DNA of 64,000 nucleotides from Candidatus Gastranaerophilales bacterium. Lineage in GTDB: Bacteria > Cyanobacteriota > Vampirovibrionia > Gastranaerophilales > Gastranaerophilaceae. The notes beneath the pieces were generated by a model. The model did no database searches. It worked only from the letters and a program-made list of their open reading frames with translations, and was not told where the DNA came from. Shown one piece after another: positions 2,993-64,000 of this stretch. Position 1 is the stretch's first letter, and every line of letters starts with the position of its first letter. The stretch lies in NCBI GenBank assembly GCA_944325705.1, contig CALVBB010000001.1, positions 67,223 through 131,222 of the forward strand. The letters run 5' to 3'. Made by a program: the position numbers and the translations under genes.

Positions 2993-3266
2993 TTATTTCA
3001 GTAAAATATCTTCCGCGGACTGACCGCCCTTTTCTGTAAGTTCGCATATGAATGTCAAACCGATAACAGGTTTTCTTTCATTTTCTCTGTATAGATTAAG
3101 ATAAAACAAATCATACCCCCACCTGTTAGGCCCTTTTATACCGTTAACATCCAGACCGAAAAATAATGAGTTATGATTATAATAATACTTCTGCAAGTGT
3201 AAATGCAATTTTACAGCTATCTTCTCTCAATAAAAATTCTCCAGTTGTAAATCCTCTTTTAATCAT
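2993..3266 (-). pseudogene. Decayed prepilin-like gene, copy 2: a 29-codon N-terminal stub (MIKRGFTTGEFLLREDSCKIAFTLAEVLL*, 3177-3266) and an out-of-frame C-terminal cassette (2993-3208)
   Basis: The stub has a GGAGA RBS and the FTLAEV prepilin motif but stops where the hydrophobic helix should begin. The C-terminal frame has only a TTG start, which lies inside the stub codons. This is the inverted repeat partner of 382-567. Confidence 0.6.
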
Positions 3267-3279
3267 ATATATCTCCATA

Positions 3280-3459
3280 ATGTAAAGTTGGAATAAAGTT
3301 AAGTGGTATCAGCTGGCAGAATCAACGGATTTAAGCACCGCAACAATATCAAAGCTTATGAAGGGTGAGAATATTGATGTAAAGCTCAGTACAATAAATA
3401 AGCTATGTAATTATTTAAAATGTGATTTAAAAGACATACTGGAATATACACCGGATTAG
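3280..3459 (+). pseudogene. XRE/Cro-like HTH gene with a stop at codon 2 (ATG TAA, then SWNKVKWYQLAESTDLSTATISKLMKGENIDVKLSTINKLCNYLKCDLKDILEYTPD)
   Basis: The frame is otherwise open for 57 codons and shows the small HTH regulator pattern (LAExTxLSxxTISKLxxG...L..L). No alternative in-frame start is visible. Confidence 0.45.
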
Positions 3460-58415: not shown

Positions 58416-59777
58416 ATGGAGGGCTTTATGAAAGATTTTATGAAGAAATTTTTATTAGGTATTTTAGGAGGTGTAATGATGTCTTTACCTGTATTCAGTC
58501 AGAACGGTTTGCCTGATGACAAAAAGCAGGAGCTTATCGGAAAACTTAATGATGCGTCGCTTGTTGTGTATAAGAATGATGAGATTAAAACATTTACCGA
58601 ACACGGACTGGCGCCACTTTTGATGTATCTGGAAGATTGTAATTTTAAAGATACGTATGTCTTTGATAGAACAGTCGGGAGGGCTGCAGCTTTTTTGTAT
58701 GTTTACGGAGATGCTGATTACGTTTATGCTGATACAATTTCAAAACCTGCAATTGAAATTTTGAAAGAAAATAAAATTACATACGAAGCAAAAAATGTTG
58801 TTGATGAAATTCAAAACAAAGATAAAACAGACTTGTGTCCGTTTGAAAAGCTTACAAAAAATGCAACAAGTTCGGCTCAGGCTTACGGTTTGATTTATAA
58901 AAAACTTCATCCTGATACAGCTGTAGTTTATTTTACGCCGGATATAACTTCCGATAAGCTTGTAGAAGTTTACAAAACTCTCGGGAAAAATCTGGATGGC
59001 AAAGTCGCGGTTAAGCTGCACTCCGGCGAACCCGGCGGGCACAACTTTTTGCAGCCGGATTTTGTGAAACCTCTTGTTAAATATCTGGATGCTACTATTG
59101 TCGAATGTAATACTGCTTACGAAGGCCGTAGAAACACAACAGAAAAACATAAGGAGGCTATTAAAGAACACGGCTTTGATAGAATTGCAAAAGTGGATAT
59201 TATGGATTCCGAGGGTCAGATGGAACTCCCTGTTCCTGATGGCAAGCAGATTAAAGTCAATTATGTCGGCTCTCATTTGAAAAACTATGACTCAATGCTT
59301 GTGCTTTCTCATTTTAAAGGTCATCAGATGGGCGGTTTTGGAGGTGCACTGAAAAATATGTCAATCGGGATTGCTTCATCTTACGGAAAAGCTTATATCC
59401 ACGGCGCAGGAGTGCCTGAAAATATCTGGACTTGCGAGCAGGATAAATTTCTGGAAGCTATGGCTGATGCAGATAAATCGGTTATGGACTATATGAAAGG
59501 CAACATAACTTTCATAAACGTAATGAGCAAGATGTCTATAGACTGTGATTGCAATAACAATCCAACCCCGCCTGAGATTGCTGATATTGGAATTTTAGGT
59601 TCTGATGACCCTGTAGCACTTGATCAGGCTTGTGTTGATCTTGTTTACAGCTCAAAAGATCCGGGTAAGGCTTCTCTTATCAAACGCATGGAAGAAAAAC
59701 ATGGTATCCACACTGTTGAAGCCGCTGCAGATTTAGGCGTAGGCATTAGAAAATATAAACTTATCGAAATGAAATAA
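58416..59777 (+). CDS. DUF362-like protein with an extra N-terminal domain and a signal peptide
   Basis: 453 aa; the start is possibly the ATG at 58428 after GGAGGG. Has KLHSGEPGG and a CDCNNNP Cys motif. Confidence 0.55.
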   Translation: MEGFMKDFMKKFLLGILGGVMMSLPVFSQNGLPDDKKQELIGKLNDASLVVYKNDEIKTFTEHGLAPLLMYLEDCNFKDTYVFDRTVGRAAAFLYVYGDADYVYADTISKPAIEILKENKITYEAKNVVDEIQNKDKTDLCPFEKLTKNATSSAQAYGLIYKKLHPDTAVVYFTPDITSDKLVEVYKTLGKNLDGKVAVKLHSGEPGGHNFLQPDFVKPLVKYLDATIVECNTAYEGRRNTTEKHKEAIKEHGFDRIAKVDIMDSEGQMELPVPDGKQIKVNYVGSHLKNYDSMLVLSHFKGHQMGGFGGALKNMSIGIASSYGKAYIHGAGVPENIWTCEQDKFLEAMADADKSVMDYMKGNITFINVMSKMSIDCDCNNNPTPPEIADIGILGSDDPVALDQACVDLVYSSKDPGKASLIKRMEEKHGIHTVEAAADLGVGIRKYKLIEMK

Positions 59778-59794
59778 TGATAAATAAAATTCTG

Positions 59795-59835
59795 AAAACG
59801 ACGGATTTCCGGCAGATGGTTGTCCGTCGTTTTTT
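59795..59835 (+). terminator. Rho-independent terminator
   Basis: aaaacgacgga/tccgtcgtttt stem followed by TTTTT. It covers the track alternative start at 59820. Confidence 0.8.
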
Positions 59836-59891
59836 GTAAATCAATAATCAGCGTGTATAATTTTATTTGTAATACTTGTGAAGGAATTTTT

Positions 59892-60497
59892 ATGTTAGAA
59901 AATTATCCGGCTTATTTGATGTTCATAAATGACAGGATTGCAAAGTTTTTTGAAATCCAAAAACCTTATATATCCTGTTCAAAAGGGTGCGCAAAATGCT
60001 GTAAAAATGCTCAGTTTCCGTATTCTGAAATCGAGATAAAGTATCTCCTGTCAGGTTTTTTGCAGCTTGATGAGGGTACAAAGGCTGTTATTGAAAACAA
60101 CATAAATAAAGTTCTGGAGCAGAAAAAGAATTTTAATGGGGAAGAATTTTTCTACGATTGTCCTTTTTTAATAAATGATGTTTGCTCTGTATATCATTAC
60201 AGAGGGCTTGTTTGCAGAACTTTCGGACTGCTTGCAAGAGGGGCTGACGGCAGAATGAAAATTCCTTTTTGCGCCTATGAGGGGTTAAACTATTCAAACG
60301 TTCTGGATTTAGAGAAAAGAGAAATTTCTAAAGAAAAAGTTGAAGCCTTAAATTTTCCGGAGAAACCTGCAGGTTTTAATATAAGCTATACATTTTTAAC
60401 GGATTCAGATTTTGAGAAAACTTTCAATTTTAAATTTGGGGAAAAGAAGTCGCTTATAGACTGGTTTATTCCGGAAAGTTCAGATGGTGTCGGTTAG
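59892..60497 (+). CDS. YkgJ-family cysteine-cluster protein
   Basis: Has CSKGCAKCC and CPFL..DVCSVYHYRGLVCRTFG motifs. Confidence 0.75.
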   Translation: MLENYPAYLMFINDRIAKFFEIQKPYISCSKGCAKCCKNAQFPYSEIEIKYLLSGFLQLDEGTKAVIENNINKVLEQKKNFNGEEFFYDCPFLINDVCSVYHYRGLVCRTFGLLARGADGRMKIPFCAYEGLNYSNVLDLEKREISKEKVEALNFPEKPAGFNISYTFLTDSDFEKTFNFKFGEKKSLIDWFIPESSDGVG

Positions 60498-60649
60498 AAT
60501 TCTGGCAGTATTGTTGTGCAAGTATGCCCAACCGACACTTTATTGTAATAACAACAAACTGGACATTAAAATCTGCTTTATCCGGACAAAACGTTTTAAT
60601 ATAACTAACCCCCGCTTTAGCTGACTGCCGGATGGAATTTTGTATAATC

Positions 60650-60720
60650 TGGGACGGAAGGATTCGAACCTCCGAATGGCTGGACCAAAACCAGCTGCCT
60701 TACCACTTGGCGACGTCCCA
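60650..60720 (-). tRNA. tRNA-Gln (anticodon UUG)
   Basis: Manual cloverleaf: acceptor TGGGACG/CGTCCCA, anticodon stem GCTGG/CCAGC with loop TTTTGGT, and T arm GGAGG-TTCGAAT-CCTTC. No CCA is encoded. Confidence 0.9.
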
Positions 60721-60738
60721 TTAATTGTCACATCTATT

Positions 60739-60766
60739 ATTGTACCTGATAAACCGGTATTGTCAA
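60739..60766 (-). promoter_or_regulatory. Candidate promoter of tRNA-Gln
   Basis: Minus strand reads TTGACA-N16-TACAAT, ending about 19 nt before the tRNA 5-prime end. The -35 overlaps the stop of the XRE gene. Confidence 0.55.
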
Positions 60767-60984
60767 TATTCTATTTCTTTGAAAAAGTCATTTATGTCAA
60801 CACGAAGAATTTTTGATAATTTGAAAATGACCAGTGCACTCGGTATGATTGTTCCACGTTCAAGTTTGCCAACGTAATTTATGCTCATATCAAGCAGTTC
60901 TGCAAGTTTATCCTGCGTGTAGTGCCGTCTTAGTCTTTCTGCTCTGATATTTGAACCTAACAGATACCCGAAATCGTTTTCCAT
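60763..60984 (-). CDS. XRE-family helix-turn-helix transcriptional regulator
   Basis: 73 aa from the ATG (MENDFGYLLGSNIRAERLRRHYTQDKLAELLDMSINYVGKLERG). Divergent from the prepilin gene. Confidence 0.8.
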   Translation of the reverse strand: MENDFGYLLGSNIRAERLRRHYTQDKLAELLDMSINYVGKLERGTIIPSALVIFKLSKILRVDINDFFKEIEY

Positions 60985-61003
60985 AATTATTAATTTTATA
61001 CTG

Positions 61004-61032
61004 TTGACAAAATCAAGCAAAGAGATTATTAT
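61004..61032 (+). promoter_or_regulatory. Candidate promoter of the prepilin-like gene
   Basis: TTGACA-N17-TATTAT in the XRE/prepilin divergent spacer. Confidence 0.5.
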
Positions 61033-61099
61033 AAAGAAAATATTTACTATAATAAATATTTAGGTTATTATTATAAATGTTTGCGAGGTGTATAGAATT

Positions 61100-61845
61100 A
61101 TGCGTAAAAACAAAGGAGCGTTTACTCTAGCAGAGGTTTTAATTACGCTCGGGGTAATGGGAATTGTTGCTGCTATGACGCTTCCGGCGTTTGTTCAGAA
61201 GCATAACGAAAAAGTAATAGTTTCAAAATTGAAAAAGAGCTATTCCACTATGCAGCAGGCATACTTGATGGCAGTTAAAGACAAAGGAACTCCTGATTTG
61301 TGGGGACTGGTCGATAATTTGACTAGTGAAAATGATGATATTTATGATGTCAATAATTTTTTGTACCACTTAAAAGATTATTTGAAAATAATAAAATATT
61401 GCGGTAAAGAGGCGAAAGGATGCTGGGCTGATACCAAAACTTTGTATGGAGTTTTGTTTCAGCACCACGAAAATGCTTCTAGGTATTCAAAAGCAGTTTT
61501 GGCTGACGGATCAAATATCCTTTTACATACGTCACAAATCCTGAATGCAGCGGAACTTCCGGATGGGTTAAGGATATATGTGGATTTTACAGGGTGGATG
61601 TAAACGGGAATAAAGAACCGAATTCTATGGGTCGTGACGTATTTACTTTCTATATAACAAAAAACAGAATTGTTCCGGCAGGTTCCCAGATGGAGGCAAA
61701 TGCCGGTTATAGTTTTGCAAAAAGCTGTCGAGATTCCAAAACCCAGGAAGGCAGAGGTTGCACAGCATGGGTTATTTACAATGAAAATATGGATTATTTA
61801 CACTGCAGCGACTTAAGCTGGGATGGCAAAAAGACATGTAAATAA
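61100..61845 (+). pseudogene. Prepilin-type N-terminal methylation domain protein interrupted by a -1 frameshift at the GGG run at 61592-61594
   Basis: MRKNKGA-FTLAEVLITLGVMGIVAAMTLPAF, with a GAGGTG RBS. Frame 1 stops at 61601-61603. Frame 2 (61594 onward) continues VDVNGNKEPNSMGRDVFTF, the conserved C-terminal motif. Confidence 0.75.
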
Positions 61846-61850
61846 TAGCA

Positions 61851-62549
61851 TCAATAGATAAACGGGCTTTTTTCCGCTGCGCGAACAGTTTCAATGTCCG
61901 GAAGAAGCTTTTCAAAGACTTCAAGAACCGGAATTTCACTTTCAAAATGTCCTGTATCAAAGAGCACAATCGGGCTTTCAAGTGCTGTGTGAAACTTTAT
62001 ATCACCGGTAATGAGTGCGTCTGCACTTTTTTCAAAGGCTTCTTCTATAAATTCAGAGCCGCTTCCGGCACAGAAGGCAAGTTTATTTAATTCTTTAACC
62101 CCGCGGTTATTTACATATCGGAGATTTGGTGAAAGTTTCAGAAGTCTGCCGCGCAGTTCATCTATAGAAATTTTTGCATCTGCAAACCTTAGAAAATCAG
62201 AGGTTTCACTCACCTCAAATCCGAGTTTTGCAACAAGTGTGTCTGTTGTTCCGCCCTGTGTGCGGTCGAGGTTTGTGTGGGCTGTGTAGATGTCAATATA
62301 CGGCTGCAGAGCTTCTGAAACAAGTTCAGAATGACAATTTATTGCGAACATCGGATGGTGGGAGATTATCATATCGCAATTTTGTTGAAGCGCCTGTCTT
62401 ATAATATCTTCTGTTACTGTGAGACAGAGCATAATTTTGTTAATTTCTGATCTGTTTGTTTCAACTGCCCATCCCGAACAGTCCCAGCTTTCCGCAAGTT
62501 CTGGCGGTGCAAAATCTTCAATCCTTTTTACAATTTCGTATTTATTCAT
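61851..62549 (-). CDS. Nif3-family dinuclear metal-centre protein
   Basis: 232 aa with WDCSGW, ISHHP and the typical NIF3 layout. Confidence 0.8.
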   Translation of the reverse strand: MNKYEIVKRIEDFAPPELAESWDCSGWAVETNRSEINKIMLCLTVTEDIIRQALQQNCDMIISHHPMFAINCHSELVSEALQPYIDIYTAHTNLDRTQGGTTDTLVAKLGFEVSETSDFLRFADAKISIDELRGRLLKLSPNLRYVNNRGVKELNKLAFCAGSGSEFIEEAFEKSADALITGDIKFHTALESPIVLFDTGHFESEIPVLEVFEKLLPDIETVRAAEKSPFIY

Positions 62550-63786
62550 TTATAACCTTTAAAATTTCACGTGCAATTTCGGTTTTGGATGCACGCTCAA
62601 GTTTTGTCATTTCTCCGTTTTTCTTGATGATTGTAACCTCATTATAATCACTTGAAAATCCGATGTCTTTTCTTGAAATGTCGTTTGCGATTAAGTAGTC
62701 GCAGCCTTTTTTTTGAAATTTTTCTTTTGCGTTCGCGAGGAGATTTTCACTCTCCGCGCAGAAGCCGACAATTATTTTGTCATTCTGAACTTGTTTGCCT
62801 TCTTTTGCTGAAAACTTGTTTTCGGGCAAAATGGCTTCTGGTGACAGAAGCTCTTCTCTTTTTCTTTCACAAAGTCCTTTTAAGATGTCCGGATTTTTAA
62901 CAAGTTCAAGCGTTAGGGTGTCATCATTTGTCTTTTTAATCTTTTGCCCTGATTTATTTTTCACCCTGTAATCAGCAACGGCTGCAGCCATTATTATAAA
63001 ATCAGCAGCTTCAAATTCCGAGTTGACAGTCTGCTGCATTTCGATTGCAGATTTTACTTTTATAATTTTGTAAGGTCTTGCGACATCGACAGTTGTGATT
63101 AATGTGACGTTATTGCCGCAGCGGTAAGCCTCATCCGCAAGTGCAATCCCCATTTTACCGGAGGAGTAGTTTGAAATATATCTTACAGGGTCAATATCTT
63201 CAATTGTTCCTCCTGCCGTGATTACATATTTTTTGCCTCTGTTTTTTGATGTAAGAATTGCGGCTGCTTCATCGTAAATTTTTTCTAAACTGCAAAGCCT
63301 GCCCTTGCCTTCATAGCCGCAGGCGAGGTAGCCGCTTTCAGGGGCAAGAATTTTGTAGCCGCGTGAGGAAAGTTTTTTTAAATTTTCCTGAATTGCAGGA
63401 TTTTCCCACATATTACAGTTCATTGCAGGAGCGATTATTACAGGCTTTTTAAATGCGCAGACAATGGATGTTAAAAGATTATCGCAGATACCCGAGGCGA
63501 TTTTTGAAATTGTATTTGCGGTTGCGGGCGCTATTATCATAATATCCGTTTCATCCGCGTAAGATATATGTTCCGGTTTGAAATCCGGAATGTCAAATTC
63601 TTCCACGCCGACTTCGTTCTGGCTGAGGTTCCGGAGGGTTAATTTAGTGACAAAGTTTAAAGCGTTCGGTGTGCAGACAACACGGACGTTTGCGCCTTTT
63701 CTTTTGAACATTCTTATAAGTTCGCAGATTTTATAAGCGGCTATTCCGCCGCAGATGCCGATTAGAATATTTTTCCCGCTCAGCAT
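62542..63786 (-). CDS. coaBC: Bifunctional phosphopantothenoylcysteine decarboxylase / phosphopantothenate-cysteine ligase
   Basis: 414 aa. N-terminal flavoprotein (GICGGIAAYK) and C-terminal DFP domain (SSGKMG). Confidence 0.9.
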   Translation of the reverse strand: MLSGKNILIGICGGIAAYKICELIRMFKRKGANVRVVCTPNALNFVTKLTLRNLSQNEVGVEEFDIPDFKPEHISYADETDIMIIAPATANTISKIASGICDNLLTSIVCAFKKPVIIAPAMNCNMWENPAIQENLKKLSSRGYKILAPESGYLACGYEGKGRLCSLEKIYDEAAAILTSKNRGKKYVITAGGTIEDIDPVRYISNYSSGKMGIALADEAYRCGNNVTLITTVDVARPYKIIKVKSAIEMQQTVNSEFEAADFIIMAAAVADYRVKNKSGQKIKKTNDDTLTLELVKNPDILKGLCERKREELLSPEAILPENKFSAKEGKQVQNDKIIVGFCAESENLLANAKEKFQKKGCDYLIANDISRKDIGFSSDYNEVTIIKKNGEMTKLERASKTEIAREILKVINE

Positions 63787-64000
63787 TTTTGTTCTCCGTA
63801 GATAATATTTTCTAAATCGCTGATTGCTTTATCAAGGTCATCGTTTACCACTTTATAATCAAAATTTTCGGCGCGTTCAAGTTCAGTTTTTACTTCCTGA
63901 AGCCGTTTTTGAATAGTAGCTTCATCTTCGGTATGGCGGCCCCTGAGCCGATTTTCCAGCGCTTCAATTGATGGCGGGCAGATAAAAATCAAGACTGCTT
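63780..64000 (-). CDS. gmk: Guanylate kinase, C-terminal part only (the gene runs off the window)
   Basis: IFICPPSIEALENRLRGRHTEDEATIQKRL is the typical Gmk segment. The ORF is open to the window edge. Confidence 0.75.
   Translation of the reverse strand, partial: AVLIFICPPSIEALENRLRGRHTEDEATIQKRLQEVKTELERAENFDYKVVNDDLDKAISDLENIIYGEQKC

What the first reader, a model, noticed from the sequence alone, without database searches (positions are those of the whole stretch)
60650..61845. Third XRE / prepilin divergent module, lying directly beside tRNA-Gln: a recurrent architecture
This is the intact-length version of the module seen decayed at 106-567 and 2993-3459. An XRE regulator (60763-60984, minus strand) is divergent from a prepilin-like gene (61100 onward, plus strand), with a TTGACA-N17-TATTAT promoter between them. 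The start region of the XRE gene and the spacer are recognisably similar to copy 1: tccataatt..aattttat..ttgac in both. The XRE stop overlaps the -35 of the tRNA-Gln promoter. Three copies in 64 kb of a dedicated small regulator paired with a pilin-like gene, in different stages of decay, suggest a mobile or rapidly turning-over family of regulated surface-filament subunits. The tRNA adjacency fits an insertion hotspot, but I found no integrase or direct repeat of the tRNA 3-prime end.
Basis: partly seen in the sequence, partly recalled or inferred. Interest (0 to 1): 0.6.

Follow-up and report, generated by a model that had tools for sequence, protein, structure and literature searches.

The report
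Pilin-like gene with private regulator
In an uncultured gut bacterium (Gastranaerophilales), this is one of at least 44 places where a pilin-like surface-protein gene sits back-to-back with its own small DNA-binding regulator; the regulator is old and almost unchanged between species, while the pilin gene behind it is swapped, broken or deleted, which suggests an undescribed way of switching a large, fast-changing surface repertoire gene by gene.

Summary
The module is real but it is not intact and not mobile. A 73-aa XRE/HTH_3 gene (60763-60984, minus) lies divergent from a prepilin-type gene (ATG 61100). Between them is a TTGACA-N17-TATTAT promoter and a 115-bp spacer that is strongly conserved. 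The pilin gene is split by a +TT frameshift at 61521-61524. Most conspecific metagenome contigs carry an intact 247-aa allele, and one carries an independent +C frameshift at the same site.

Genome-wide there are 123 pilin-like genes in 1.95 Mb. Of these, 44 have a divergent XRE within 600 bp (1.4 expected, P=4e-53). Many of the spacers carry their own palindromes or repeats. XRE front ends and poly-G leader front ends never occur together.

At the orthologous tRNA-Gln|NIF3 site in 14 genomes of the genus:
- 5 carry the module.
- 2 carry deletion remnants.
- 1 has the XRE replaced by a G11 leader.
- 6 are empty.

XRE orthologues are 96-99% identical although synonymous sites are saturated (dN/dS about 0.01-0.02), and the pilin cargo differs between species. 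The tRNA adjacency is incidental: 1 of 44 modules lies near a tRNA, as expected by chance.

The most likely function is a private repressor, similar to an R-M controller (C) protein, acting on one expression site of a variable pilin-like repertoire. I found no published description of this.

The parts
60649..60720 (-). tRNA-Gln (anticodon UUG). It is a neighbour, not a functional part of the module.
   Evidence: ARAGORN. Rfam tRNA 60.1 bits.
60739..60766 (-). tRNA-Gln promoter-like site TTGACA-N16-TACAAT. Its -35 hexamer contains the XRE stop codon TGA (60765-60763).
   Evidence: Promoter scan, 11/12. The TTGACA is kept in all genus genomes, including those with an empty site.
60763..60984 (-). 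XRE/Cro-CI-type HTH_3 regulator, 73 aa, HTH domain only with no sensor domain.
   Evidence: Pfam HTH_3 1.9e-13. Orthologues are 96-99% identical in 4 other species, with dN 0.006-0.048 and pS 0.60-0.82.
60985..61099 (.). 115-bp divergent control region. It is conserved between species far above the synonymous-site level.
   Evidence: Identity is 75-81% between lineages whose synonymous sites are saturated. 72 of 115 columns are invariant.
61004..61032 (+). Pilin promoter-like site TTGACA-N17-TATTAT.
   Evidence: Promoter scan, 11/12. TTGACA is invariant in the orthologues.
61038..61062 (.). Candidate operators: two copies of AAATATTTA (61039-61047 and 61054-62). The core AAATATTT is a palindrome. 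They sit about 15 bp apart, just downstream of the pilin -10 and over the candidate XRE promoter.
   Evidence: Read from the sequence. The block TTTACTATAATAAA(T/C)ATTTA is nearly invariant across 5 species. The two-site arrangement occurs once in the genome. Binding is inferred, not shown.
61049..61077 (-). Candidate XRE promoter TTTATA-N17-TATTAT. This is a weak consensus match.
   Evidence: Promoter scan, 9/12. The assignment is uncertain in AT-rich DNA.
61085..61090 (+). Shine-Dalgarno-like GAGGTG, 9 nt before the pilin ATG.
   Evidence: Read from the sequence.
61100..61603 (+). 5' part of the pilin-like gene: a short class-III leader MRKNKG|AFTLAEVLITLG..., the alpha1 helix and part of the head. 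It ends at a premature TAA (61601-61603) caused by the frameshift.
   Evidence: ORF list. N_methyl. tblastn against an intact paralogue shows the frame change.
61521..61524 (+). Frameshift site. The window has T4 where the intact allele has T2 (ATATCC--TTACAT). Another strain has +C at the same CC|TT junction.
   Evidence: Alignment A1 of the window with 7 conspecific contigs. Gene calls of 247 aa versus 167+83 and 147+83 aa.
61525..61845 (+). 3' part of the pilin-like gene in the shifted frame (...TYVTNPECSG...DVNGNKEPNSMGRDVFTF...WDGKKTCK, stop at 61843-61845).
   Evidence: Three-frame translation and tblastn. It matches residues 142-247 of the intact allele P0001.

Best explanation
The segment is one 'expression site' of a very large family of pilin-like genes in a gut Gastranaerophilales bacterium. 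The family was matched by Pfam DUF6613 in precomputed annotation.

Parts and proposed mechanism:
- A 73-aa XRE protein with only an HTH domain is transcribed divergently from the pilin-like gene.
- The XRE most likely binds as dimers to the two conserved AAATATTTA sites. These lie just downstream of the pilin -10 element and over the XRE's own candidate promoter.
- Binding would repress the pilin promoter and autoregulate the XRE. This resembles a Cro or R-M controller (C) protein acting as a private, concentration-dependent on/off switch.

Evolutionary behaviour:
- The XRE and control region are ancient, vertically inherited and under very strong purifying selection.
- The pilin cargo behind them is exchanged, truncated or deleted. 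The invariant FTLAEVLITLGIIGVVAAMTLP coding segment offers shared homology for such exchange.
- A poly-G leader is an alternative front end for the same gene family, and the two front ends are mutually exclusive.
- In this particular strain the pilin is a recent +TT frameshift null allele.
- The tRNA-Gln next door is incidental.

Shown: the anatomy, the genome-wide enrichment, the conservation pattern, presence/absence across species, cargo swapping, the frameshift polymorphism and the presence of pilus machinery. Inferred: DNA binding, the sign of regulation, switching behaviour and surface display.
For: 1. Pairing. 44 of 123 pilin-like genes have a divergent HTH_3 gene within 600 bp, against 1.4 expected (P=3.6e-53). 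At least 5 more XREs face pilin remnants.
2. Private operators. Spacers carry module-specific palindromes or direct repeats. These are enriched compared with the upstream regions of unpaired pilins (Mann-Whitney P=6e-4 and 2e-3). The long ones are unique in the genome. In a second module, a 13-nt-arm palindrome brackets the TATAAT of a TTGAAA-N17-TATAAT promoter and is conserved across 5 species.
3. Constraint. XRE3 orthologues have dN 0.006-0.048 with pS 0.60-0.82, while neighbouring NIF3 has dN 0.03-0.24. The spacer is 75-81% identical, with 72 of 115 columns invariant. A second short XRE is 94-100% identical across species.
4. Cargo is not tied to the XRE. The Mantel correlation is r=-0.03, P=0.61. 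The same XRE3 fronts different pilin subfamilies in G014/G013, in G003/G015 and in the window. A third XRE shows cargo at 77%, 50%, 36% and 35% identity, or truncated.
5. Alternative front end. There is no overlap between XRE front ends and poly-G leaders in this genome (44 versus 21-26; P=3e-5) or in 68 genes from other species (20 versus 24; P=2e-5). At the orthologous site in G012 the XRE is replaced by RBS-ATG-G11 in front of the same pilin type.
6. The proteins can be processed. The genome encodes a prepilin peptidase, a secretin, a GspE/PilB-type ATPase and PilT-like ATPases. The AF2 model has pLDDT 87.8 with a long N-terminal helix and a beta head, and its best PDB match is gonococcal pilin.
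7. XRE3 matches R-M 'Control_protein' models over their full length (E=1.5e-7).
Against: - There is no expression, TSS or binding data.
- Promoter and operator calls are consensus matches in AT-rich DNA, where such matches are common: 12 were found against 4.4 in shuffles.
- The AAATATTT sites are short and low in complexity.
- Conservation of the spacer could reflect promoters or a 5'UTR rather than operators.
- A long-type XRE that I tested is only 60-92% conserved, so extreme constraint is not general.
- 79 of the 123 pilin-like genes have no XRE, so the regulator is not essential to the family.
- The sign of regulation (repressor or activator) is inferred only from the position of the sites.
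Confidence: 0.65

Rival explanations
1. The XRE is an activator, or a dual activator-then-repressor as true C proteins are, rather than a plain repressor. The pilin would then be on only when the XRE is made.
For: XRE3 matches the PADLOC Control_protein models. C proteins activate from a distal site and repress from a proximal site of two tandem palindromes (established knowledge). Two tandem sites are present here. The pilin promoter of the long-XRE modules is often weak or unrecognised.
Against: In module 3 both sites lie downstream of a near-consensus pilin promoter (11/12), which should not need activation. In the C6 module the palindrome brackets the -10 element, a classic repressor geometry.
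Confidence: 0.2
2. The module is a mobile cassette or small island that inserted at a tRNA hotspot.
For: It is adjacent to tRNA-Gln. It is present in some genomes of the genus and absent from others.
Against: - It lies on the 5' side of the tRNA and shares the tRNA's -35 hexamer.
- There is no integrase and no direct repeat.
- XRE orthologues have saturated dS, consistent with vertical descent.
- Module-bearing genomes are scattered across the species tree, with internal-deletion scars in G005 and G010.
- Only 1 of 44 modules lies near a tRNA, against 1.1 expected.
- XRE paralogues are all deeply diverged, so there are no recent copies.
Confidence: 0.03
3. The XRE genes regulate something else, either global targets or the neighbouring genes on their other side. 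Pilin-like genes would then simply accumulate next to them, for example because divergent promoter regions tolerate insertion.
For: Cargo is freely exchanged behind a constant XRE. 24 or more XREs have no recognisable pilin partner.
Against: The operator-like repeats lie between the XRE and the pilin, overlapping the pilin promoter, and are unique to each spacer. The strict exclusivity with poly-G leaders is hard to explain unless the XRE front end serves the pilin gene.
Confidence: 0.08
4. The pair is a toxin-antitoxin or anti-phage defence pair with an XRE-type antitoxin or controller.
For: The XRE matches HTH models from defence and TA libraries.
Against: The genes are divergent rather than in an operon. 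The partner is a prepilin-type protein with no PADLOC match and a pilin-like fold. The HTH matches are generic and fall far below the curated cut-offs.
Confidence: 0.03

Closest known systems
Controller (C) proteins of type II restriction-modification systems (C.PvuII, C.AhdI, C.Esp1396I)
   Same: Both are XRE-type HTH proteins of about 75 aa with no sensor domain. Both have tandem short palindromic sites in their own promoter region, and both are expected to autoregulate and give switch-like control of an adjacent gene. XRE3 aligns over the full length of the PADLOC Control_protein models (E=1.5e-7).
   Different: There are no R-M genes nearby. The target here is a divergent pilin-like gene, not a co-transcribed endonuclease. 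One genome holds 44 or more orthogonal copies. The sites do not resemble C-box sequences.
Homopolymer (poly-G) contingency loci of pilus genes, e.g. Neisseria pilC
   Same: Both serve to switch individual members of a surface-filament gene repertoire on and off. Poly-G leaders occur in 21-26 paralogues of this same family.
   Different: This module has no tract. XRE and poly-G front ends never coincide. They replace each other at an orthologous locus. Control by the XRE would be transcriptional and would not involve mutation.
The papI-papBA type divergent regulatory regions of E. coli fimbrial operons (from general knowledge)
   Same: A small regulator gene is transcribed divergently from a pilin gene, with a shared control region that gives heritable on/off expression of one fimbrial type among several.
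   Different: The proteins are unrelated (PapI/PapB with Lrp and Dam methylation, versus an XRE HTH). The pilus class differs (chaperone-usher versus type IV-like). An E. coli genome has a handful of such loci, not dozens.
Type IV pilins and type II secretion pseudopilins (PilE/PilA, GspG-K, ComG)
   Same: The gene has a class-III leader with the G|FTLxE motif and a long hydrophobic alpha1 helix followed by a beta-sheet head. The prepilin peptidase, secretin and ATPases are encoded in the genome.
   Different: The head domain has no close solved relative; the best Foldseek hit has E=0.05. There are 123 scattered paralogues rather than one pilus operon. Assembly into a filament has not been shown.
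Large paralogous families of prepilin-headed proteins in other phyla (DUF1559/H-X9-DG proteins of Planctomycetes and relatives; PilE-like family of Elusimicrobium). Recalled from memory, not tested here.
   Same: Dozens to hundreds of genes per genome share a near-invariant prepilin N-terminus and have variable C-terminal domains of unknown function.
   Different: The C-terminal family is different. To my knowledge no private-regulator architecture has been reported for them.

Membership tests
XRE / Cro-CI helix-turn-helix regulators (Pfam HTH_3, PF01381) | HTH_3 domain scoring above the Pfam gathering score | tested here: met
   50.7 bits against a cut-off of 23, E=1.9e-13, covering profile positions 1-55.
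XRE / Cro-CI helix-turn-helix regulators (Pfam HTH_3, PF01381) | Sequence-specific binding to a (pseudo)palindromic operator | not testable with these tools
   Candidate sites 2x AAATATTTA lie at 61039-61062 and are conserved in orthologues.
Type IV pilin-like proteins (prepilin-type N-terminus) | Class-III signal peptide with G/A-F-T-L-x-E followed by a hydrophobic helix | tested here: met
   MRKNKG|AFTLAEVLITLGVMGIVAAMTLP. N_methyl scores 25.3 bits against a cut-off of 21.2. TIGR02532 scores 18.1 against 16.3.
Type IV pilin-like proteins (prepilin-type N-terminus) | Alpha1 helix plus beta-sheet head ('lollipop') fold | tested here: met
   The AF2 model has pLDDT 87.8 with a helix at residues 10-62 followed by beta strands. 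The only Foldseek hit with appreciable probability is gonococcal pilin 1AY2 (E=0.05, prob 0.75). The architecture is met, but head-domain homology is weak.
Type IV pilin-like proteins (prepilin-type N-terminus) | Cognate prepilin peptidase and assembly machinery in the genome | tested here: met
   Peptidase_A24 at C23:17801-18190, secretin at C7:25233-25769, T2SSE ATPase at C7:26638-27810, plus PilT-like ATPases.
Type IV pilin-like proteins (prepilin-type N-terminus) | Cleavage, methylation and incorporation into a filament | not testable with these tools
   The organism is uncultured. No proteomic or imaging data were available.
Pfam DUF6613 (PF20318) | Match to the family model | tested here: inconclusive
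   Precomputed hits list PF20318 for the intact and split products in conspecific contigs. The local Pfam copy returns only N_methyl, so the score could not be reproduced.
R-M controller (C) proteins | Small HTH protein matching C-protein models | tested here: inconclusive
   PADLOC Control_protein E=1.5e-7 over positions 8-70 of 77. Generic XRE models score as well or better, and these models have no curated cut-off.
R-M controller (C) proteins | Location within, and control of, a restriction-modification operon | tested here: not met
   The neighbours are tRNA-Gln, a pilin-like gene, NIF3 and a CxxCxxCC protein. There is no endonuclease or methyltransferase.
tRNA-targeted integrative element | Integrase gene, insertion at the tRNA 3' end, and a flanking direct repeat of the tRNA 3' end | tested here: not met
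   There is no integrase among the ORFs from 59000 to 64000. The module is on the tRNA 5' side. Empty sites and scars show internal deletions, not excision. Modules are not enriched near tRNAs.
Poly-G/SSR phase-variable contingency locus | Homopolymer or short tandem repeat in the leader or promoter | tested here: not met
   None of the 44 XRE-paired genes has a G/C run of 7 or more within 250 nt upstream. The frameshift site is only a T2/T4 run.
Type II toxin-antitoxin pair with XRE antitoxin | Co-directional two-gene operon with a toxin partner | tested here: not met
   The genes are divergent. The partner is a pilin-like protein with no toxin or defence model match.

The most novel reading that the evidence does not exclude
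Gastranaerophilaceae may keep a library of about 50-160 pilin-like genes per 2-Mb genome. These would be served by interchangeable 'front ends' of two kinds: dozens of mutually orthogonal, C-protein-like XRE switches (epigenetic and bistable, needing no DNA change) and poly-G slippage switches. The pilin cargos would be shuffled behind these fixed expression sites by recombination at the invariant N-terminal coding segment. This would amount to a previously undescribed, individually addressable surface-variation system in a gut commensal lineage. It would also be a natural collection of orthogonal repressor/operator pairs.
Probability: 0.3. Interest if true: 0.8.

Novelty: new variant of a known kind. 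Interest (0 to 1): 0.6.

Why it matters
About 6% of the genes in this small gut genome belong to one pilin-like family, and a third of those have a private regulator. The family is very large: 14,220 cluster representatives at 50% identity match at E<=1e-3. It is confined to one family of Gastranaerophilales, with 40-160 copies per genome.

If the XREs are orthogonal switches, three things follow:
- It would explain how an uncultured, widespread gut lineage varies its surface, for example against host immunity or phages.
- It would be a non-mutational counterpart to classical contingency loci within the same gene family.
- It would supply dozens of natural small repressor/operator pairs for synthetic biology.

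The hypotheses can be tested directly in E. coli without culturing the organism.

Tried and rejected
- Exact look-up of the 73-aa XRE found nothing. The 85-aa TTG-start version was on record.
- DUF6613 could not be reproduced with the local Pfam copy.
- Duplication of XRE and pilin as a unit was rejected. The Mantel correlation is r=-0.03, and the nearest XRE and nearest pilin never coincide.
- A tRNA hotspot was rejected.
- A cross-regulating network through shared operators was rejected. The shared 11-mers between spacers are AT-rich or promoter words, and the long palindromes are private. One pair of modules shares a recently copied pilin 5'UTR only.
- An RNA element in the spacer or 5'UTR was rejected. 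Rfam finds only the tRNA.
- A defence or TA role was rejected. The pilin has no PADLOC hit and the XRE hits are generic HTH matches.
- Structural homology of the head domain: no PDB match at E<=0.001.
- Truncated pilins are more frequent behind XREs (10 of 44 versus 8 of 79), but this is not significant (Fisher P=0.067).
- Extreme XRE conservation is not universal. A long-type XRE is only 60-92% identical across the genus.
- Literature searches for DUF6613, and for Melainabacteria or Gastranaerophilales with pilin or pseudopilin, found no description of the family or the pairing.
Full report
**What is at 60650-61845**

ARAGORN and Rfam place tRNA-Gln(UUG) at 60649-60720 on the minus strand. 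A 73-aa ORF at 60763-60984 (minus) is an HTH_3/XRE protein (E=1.9e-13). From ATG 61100 (plus) runs a prepilin-type gene, MRKNKG|AFTLAEVLITLGVMGIVAAMTLP. N_methyl scores above its cut-off, and so does TIGR02532.

The two best promoter-like sites in the region each score 11 of 12. One is TTGACA-N17-TATTAT at 61004-61032 (plus), in front of the pilin gene. The other is TTGACA-N16-TACAAT at 60766-60739 (minus), in front of the tRNA. The -35 hexamer of the tRNA site contains the XRE TGA stop codon.

The module is not intact, however. The pilin gene is split into 61100-61603 and a shifted-frame 3' part ending at 61845. tblastn with the closest intact paralogue puts the frame change between ...ADGSNIL and ...ECSG.

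**The frameshift is a strain polymorphism**

An exact-sequence look-up of the 85-aa XRE product found 23 conspecific metagenome contigs.
- In 5 of the 7 places shown the pilin gene is one 247-aa ORF. Those five places stand for 16 further similar contigs.
- Alignment A1 shows ATATCC--TTACAT in the intact alleles.
- The window and L033 have ATATCCTTTTACAT (+TT; the T-run is at window 61521-61524).
- L035 has ATATCCCTTACAT (+C).
- L033 is 100% identical to the window over 6.2 kb, so it is probably the same strain or sample.
- L031 differs by only 8 substitutions and carries the intact gene.

The +TT insertion is therefore recent, and a second independent frameshift hit the same dinucleotide junction.

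**The organism and the gene family**

Related loci come from records titled Candidatus Gastranaerophilales, Gastranaerophilaceae or Melainabacteria MAGs, some of them mislabelled Brachyspira or Clostridium sp. CAG.

The genome is 1.95 Mb in 44 contigs. It holds 123 ORF starts encoding [AG]FTLAEVLITLGIIGVVAAMTLP. The DNA pattern for FTLAEVLITLG occurs 40-160 times per genome in most sampled genomes of the window's own family. It is essentially absent from the other families of the class: one match in about 200 genomes, and zero in the reversed-pattern control. A full HMMER search finds 14,220 cluster representatives at 50% identity with E<=1e-3.

AF2 models the intact protein confidently (pLDDT 87.8) as a long N-terminal helix followed by a beta head. 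The only PDB match with appreciable probability is gonococcal pilin, and it is weak. The genome encodes a prepilin peptidase, a secretin next to a GspE/PilB-type ATPase, and PilT-like ATPases.

**The pairing is genome-wide**

The genome has 73 HTH_3 matches. Of the 123 pilin-like genes, 44 have one divergently oriented within 600 bp upstream. Only 1.4 are expected by chance (P=3.6e-53).

In 80 loci from other species, 20 of 68 evaluable relatives have a divergent XRE.

**Each spacer looks private**

The 44 spacers carry different palindromes or direct repeats close to the pilin promoter. Examples:
- CCCATATATGGG, twice
- ACATCTATACATG-TTATAAT-TACATGTATAGATGT
- CAATATATTGATA, twice
- TACAATATATATATTGTA

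Inverted and direct repeats are longer in these spacers than in shuffled sequence and than upstream of unpaired pilin genes (P=6e-4 and 2e-3). The long motifs occur nowhere else in the genome.

In module 3 the candidates are two AAATATTTA sites at 61039-61047 and 61054-61062. This two-site arrangement is unique in the genome.

**Evolution at the orthologous site**

I retrieved the tRNA-Gln|NIF3 interval from 14 genomes of the genus.

| State of the site | Genomes |
|---|---|
| Module present | window, G014, G013, G003, G015 |
| 188-nt scar joining the XRE 3' end to the pilin 3' end (an internal deletion of about 950 bp) | G005, the closest relative (NIF3 94% identical) |
| XRE 3' remnant only | G010 |
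| Pilin of the G003/G015 type, with the XRE and spacer replaced by RBS-ATG-G11 | G012 |
| Empty (54-85 nt) | G009, G007, G008, G004, G006, G011 |

On a NIF3+CoaBC tree the module-bearing genomes are scattered through both subclades. This implies an ancestral module with at least four losses.

XRE3 orthologues are 96-99% identical, while synonymous sites are saturated (pS 0.60-0.82, dN 0.006-0.048). For neighbouring NIF3, dN is 0.03-0.24. This points to very strong purifying selection, not recent transfer. The 115-bp spacer is 75-81% identical between these lineages, with 72 of 115 columns invariant, including TTGACA, CAAAGAGA and TTTACTATAATAAA(T/C)ATTTA.

The cargo, by contrast, differs. G014 and G013 carry a different C-terminal subfamily, and G003 and G015 carry a diverged one.

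Two further modules behave in a similar way:
- A short XRE (C6:44557) is 94-100% identical in 4 of 15 genomes. Its -10-bracketing palindrome is conserved, and its pilin has a highly variable middle region.
- A long-type XRE (C13:18011) is 60-92% identical in 6 of 15 genomes. Its cargo ranges from 77% to 35% identity, or is truncated.

Within the genome, XRE and pilin distances are uncorrelated (Mantel r=-0.03, P=0.61). No XRE pair is recent, whereas some pilin pairs are.

Taken together, the XRE and spacer behave as a stable expression site, and the pilin behind them is exchangeable.

**Two exclusive front ends**

Poly-G leaders precede 21 paralogues (G runs of 8 or more within 200 nt) or 26 paralogues (7 or more within 250 nt). 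None of these has an XRE (P=3e-5). The same holds in other species: 20 with an XRE, 24 with poly-G, none with both (P=2e-5). The closest relatives of this very pilin (64-68% identical) sit behind poly-G leaders, and one sits behind a different XRE. With the G012 replacement described above, this argues that XRE spacers and poly-G leaders are alternative control modules for the same cargo family.

**Mechanism: what is inferred**

XRE3 has an HTH domain and no sensor domain. Its candidate sites lie from about +1 to +25 of the near-consensus pilin promoter and over the best minus-strand promoter match for the XRE itself (61077-61049, 9 of 12). That geometry, and the -10-bracketing palindrome of the C6 module, favour a repressor that also represses its own gene.

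XRE3 aligns over the full length of R-M controller-protein models (E=1.5e-7). C proteins are therefore the closest functional analogue, but membership fails because no R-M genes are present. An activator or dual role cannot be excluded.

**What it is not**

- It is not a tRNA-targeted element. It lies on the 5' side of the tRNA, with no integrase and no repeats, and only 1 of 44 modules is near a tRNA against 1.1 expected.
- It is not a TA or defence pair.
- It is not an RNA element.

**Novelty**

Full-text searches found no paper on DUF6613, on the Gastranaerophilales pilin-like family or on its XRE pairing. Earlier AI notes from this scan describe the same 'private repressor' architecture in other Gastranaerophilales genomes. 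I treated them as leads and re-derived the pairing here.

- the exclusivity with poly-G leaders, including a front-end replacement at an orthologous locus
- dN/dS figures that contrast a frozen XRE and spacer with swapped cargo
- the deletion scars
- the two-allele frameshift site
- the rejection of the tRNA-hotspot and unit-duplication ideas

Noticed in passing
They form an inverted repeat around rmlD-rmlB-rmlC. Their XREs are unrelated: copy 1 is an intact 75-aa HTH_3 protein, and copy 2 is a 5'-truncated HTH_26-like remnant. Copy 2 also keeps a 33-aa pilin N-terminal fragment (about 3177-3278, minus).
   Followed up: partly
L008 (G012:C9) positions about 540-800 of the tRNA-Gln|NIF3 interval: At the orthologous site in another species, the XRE and spacer are replaced by GGAGG-ATG-...-G11. 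This sits in front of a pilin orthologous to the one that G003 and G015 keep behind XRE3.
   Followed up: partly
genome-wide, e.g. G000:C8:9293, C10:3841, C16:34313; C8:254, C17:42296, C22:28895; C4:79197, C8:45394: Many pilin-like genes that lack both an XRE and a G-run of 7 or more share one of three conserved long upstream leader sequences. Read in frame these are RIIRDVGKAWFSDTLRAGFA..., PLLPPVLDYSGCPKTQRFRTPYGLTPYRK... and ...EPFTPHxSRFTSKK. They look like repeated leader or 5' elements of unknown role.
   Followed up: no
G000:C12:18745 and G000:C26:6503: Two pilin genes at normalised distance 0.21, together with the pilin-proximal part of their 5' regions, are recent copies. They sit behind different XRE genes (107 and 117 aa). 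This is a within-genome example of cargo copying between expression sites.
   Followed up: partly
G000:C21:18068-23966: A cluster of four larger prepilin-type genes (286, 542, 549 and 197 aa) has different N-termini (GFSLAEMLL, GFSLIEMLL, GFTLAEMMV). They may be the core or minor pilins of the actual pilus or secretion machine.
   Followed up: no
G000:C1:27418-30012: An 864-aa ORF has a prepilin-like motif (RRGISLAEMLLALAIVGILAAILMP). It may be a giant modular pilin-like protein.
   Followed up: no
window 60763-60766: There is no terminator between the XRE stop codon and tRNA-Gln, and the stop lies inside the tRNA -35 hexamer. XRE transcripts should therefore read through into the tRNA.
   Followed up: no
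genome-wide: Truncated or frameshifted pilin-like genes are more common behind XREs (10 of 44) than elsewhere (8 of 79). The trend is not significant (Fisher P=0.067).
   Followed up: partly
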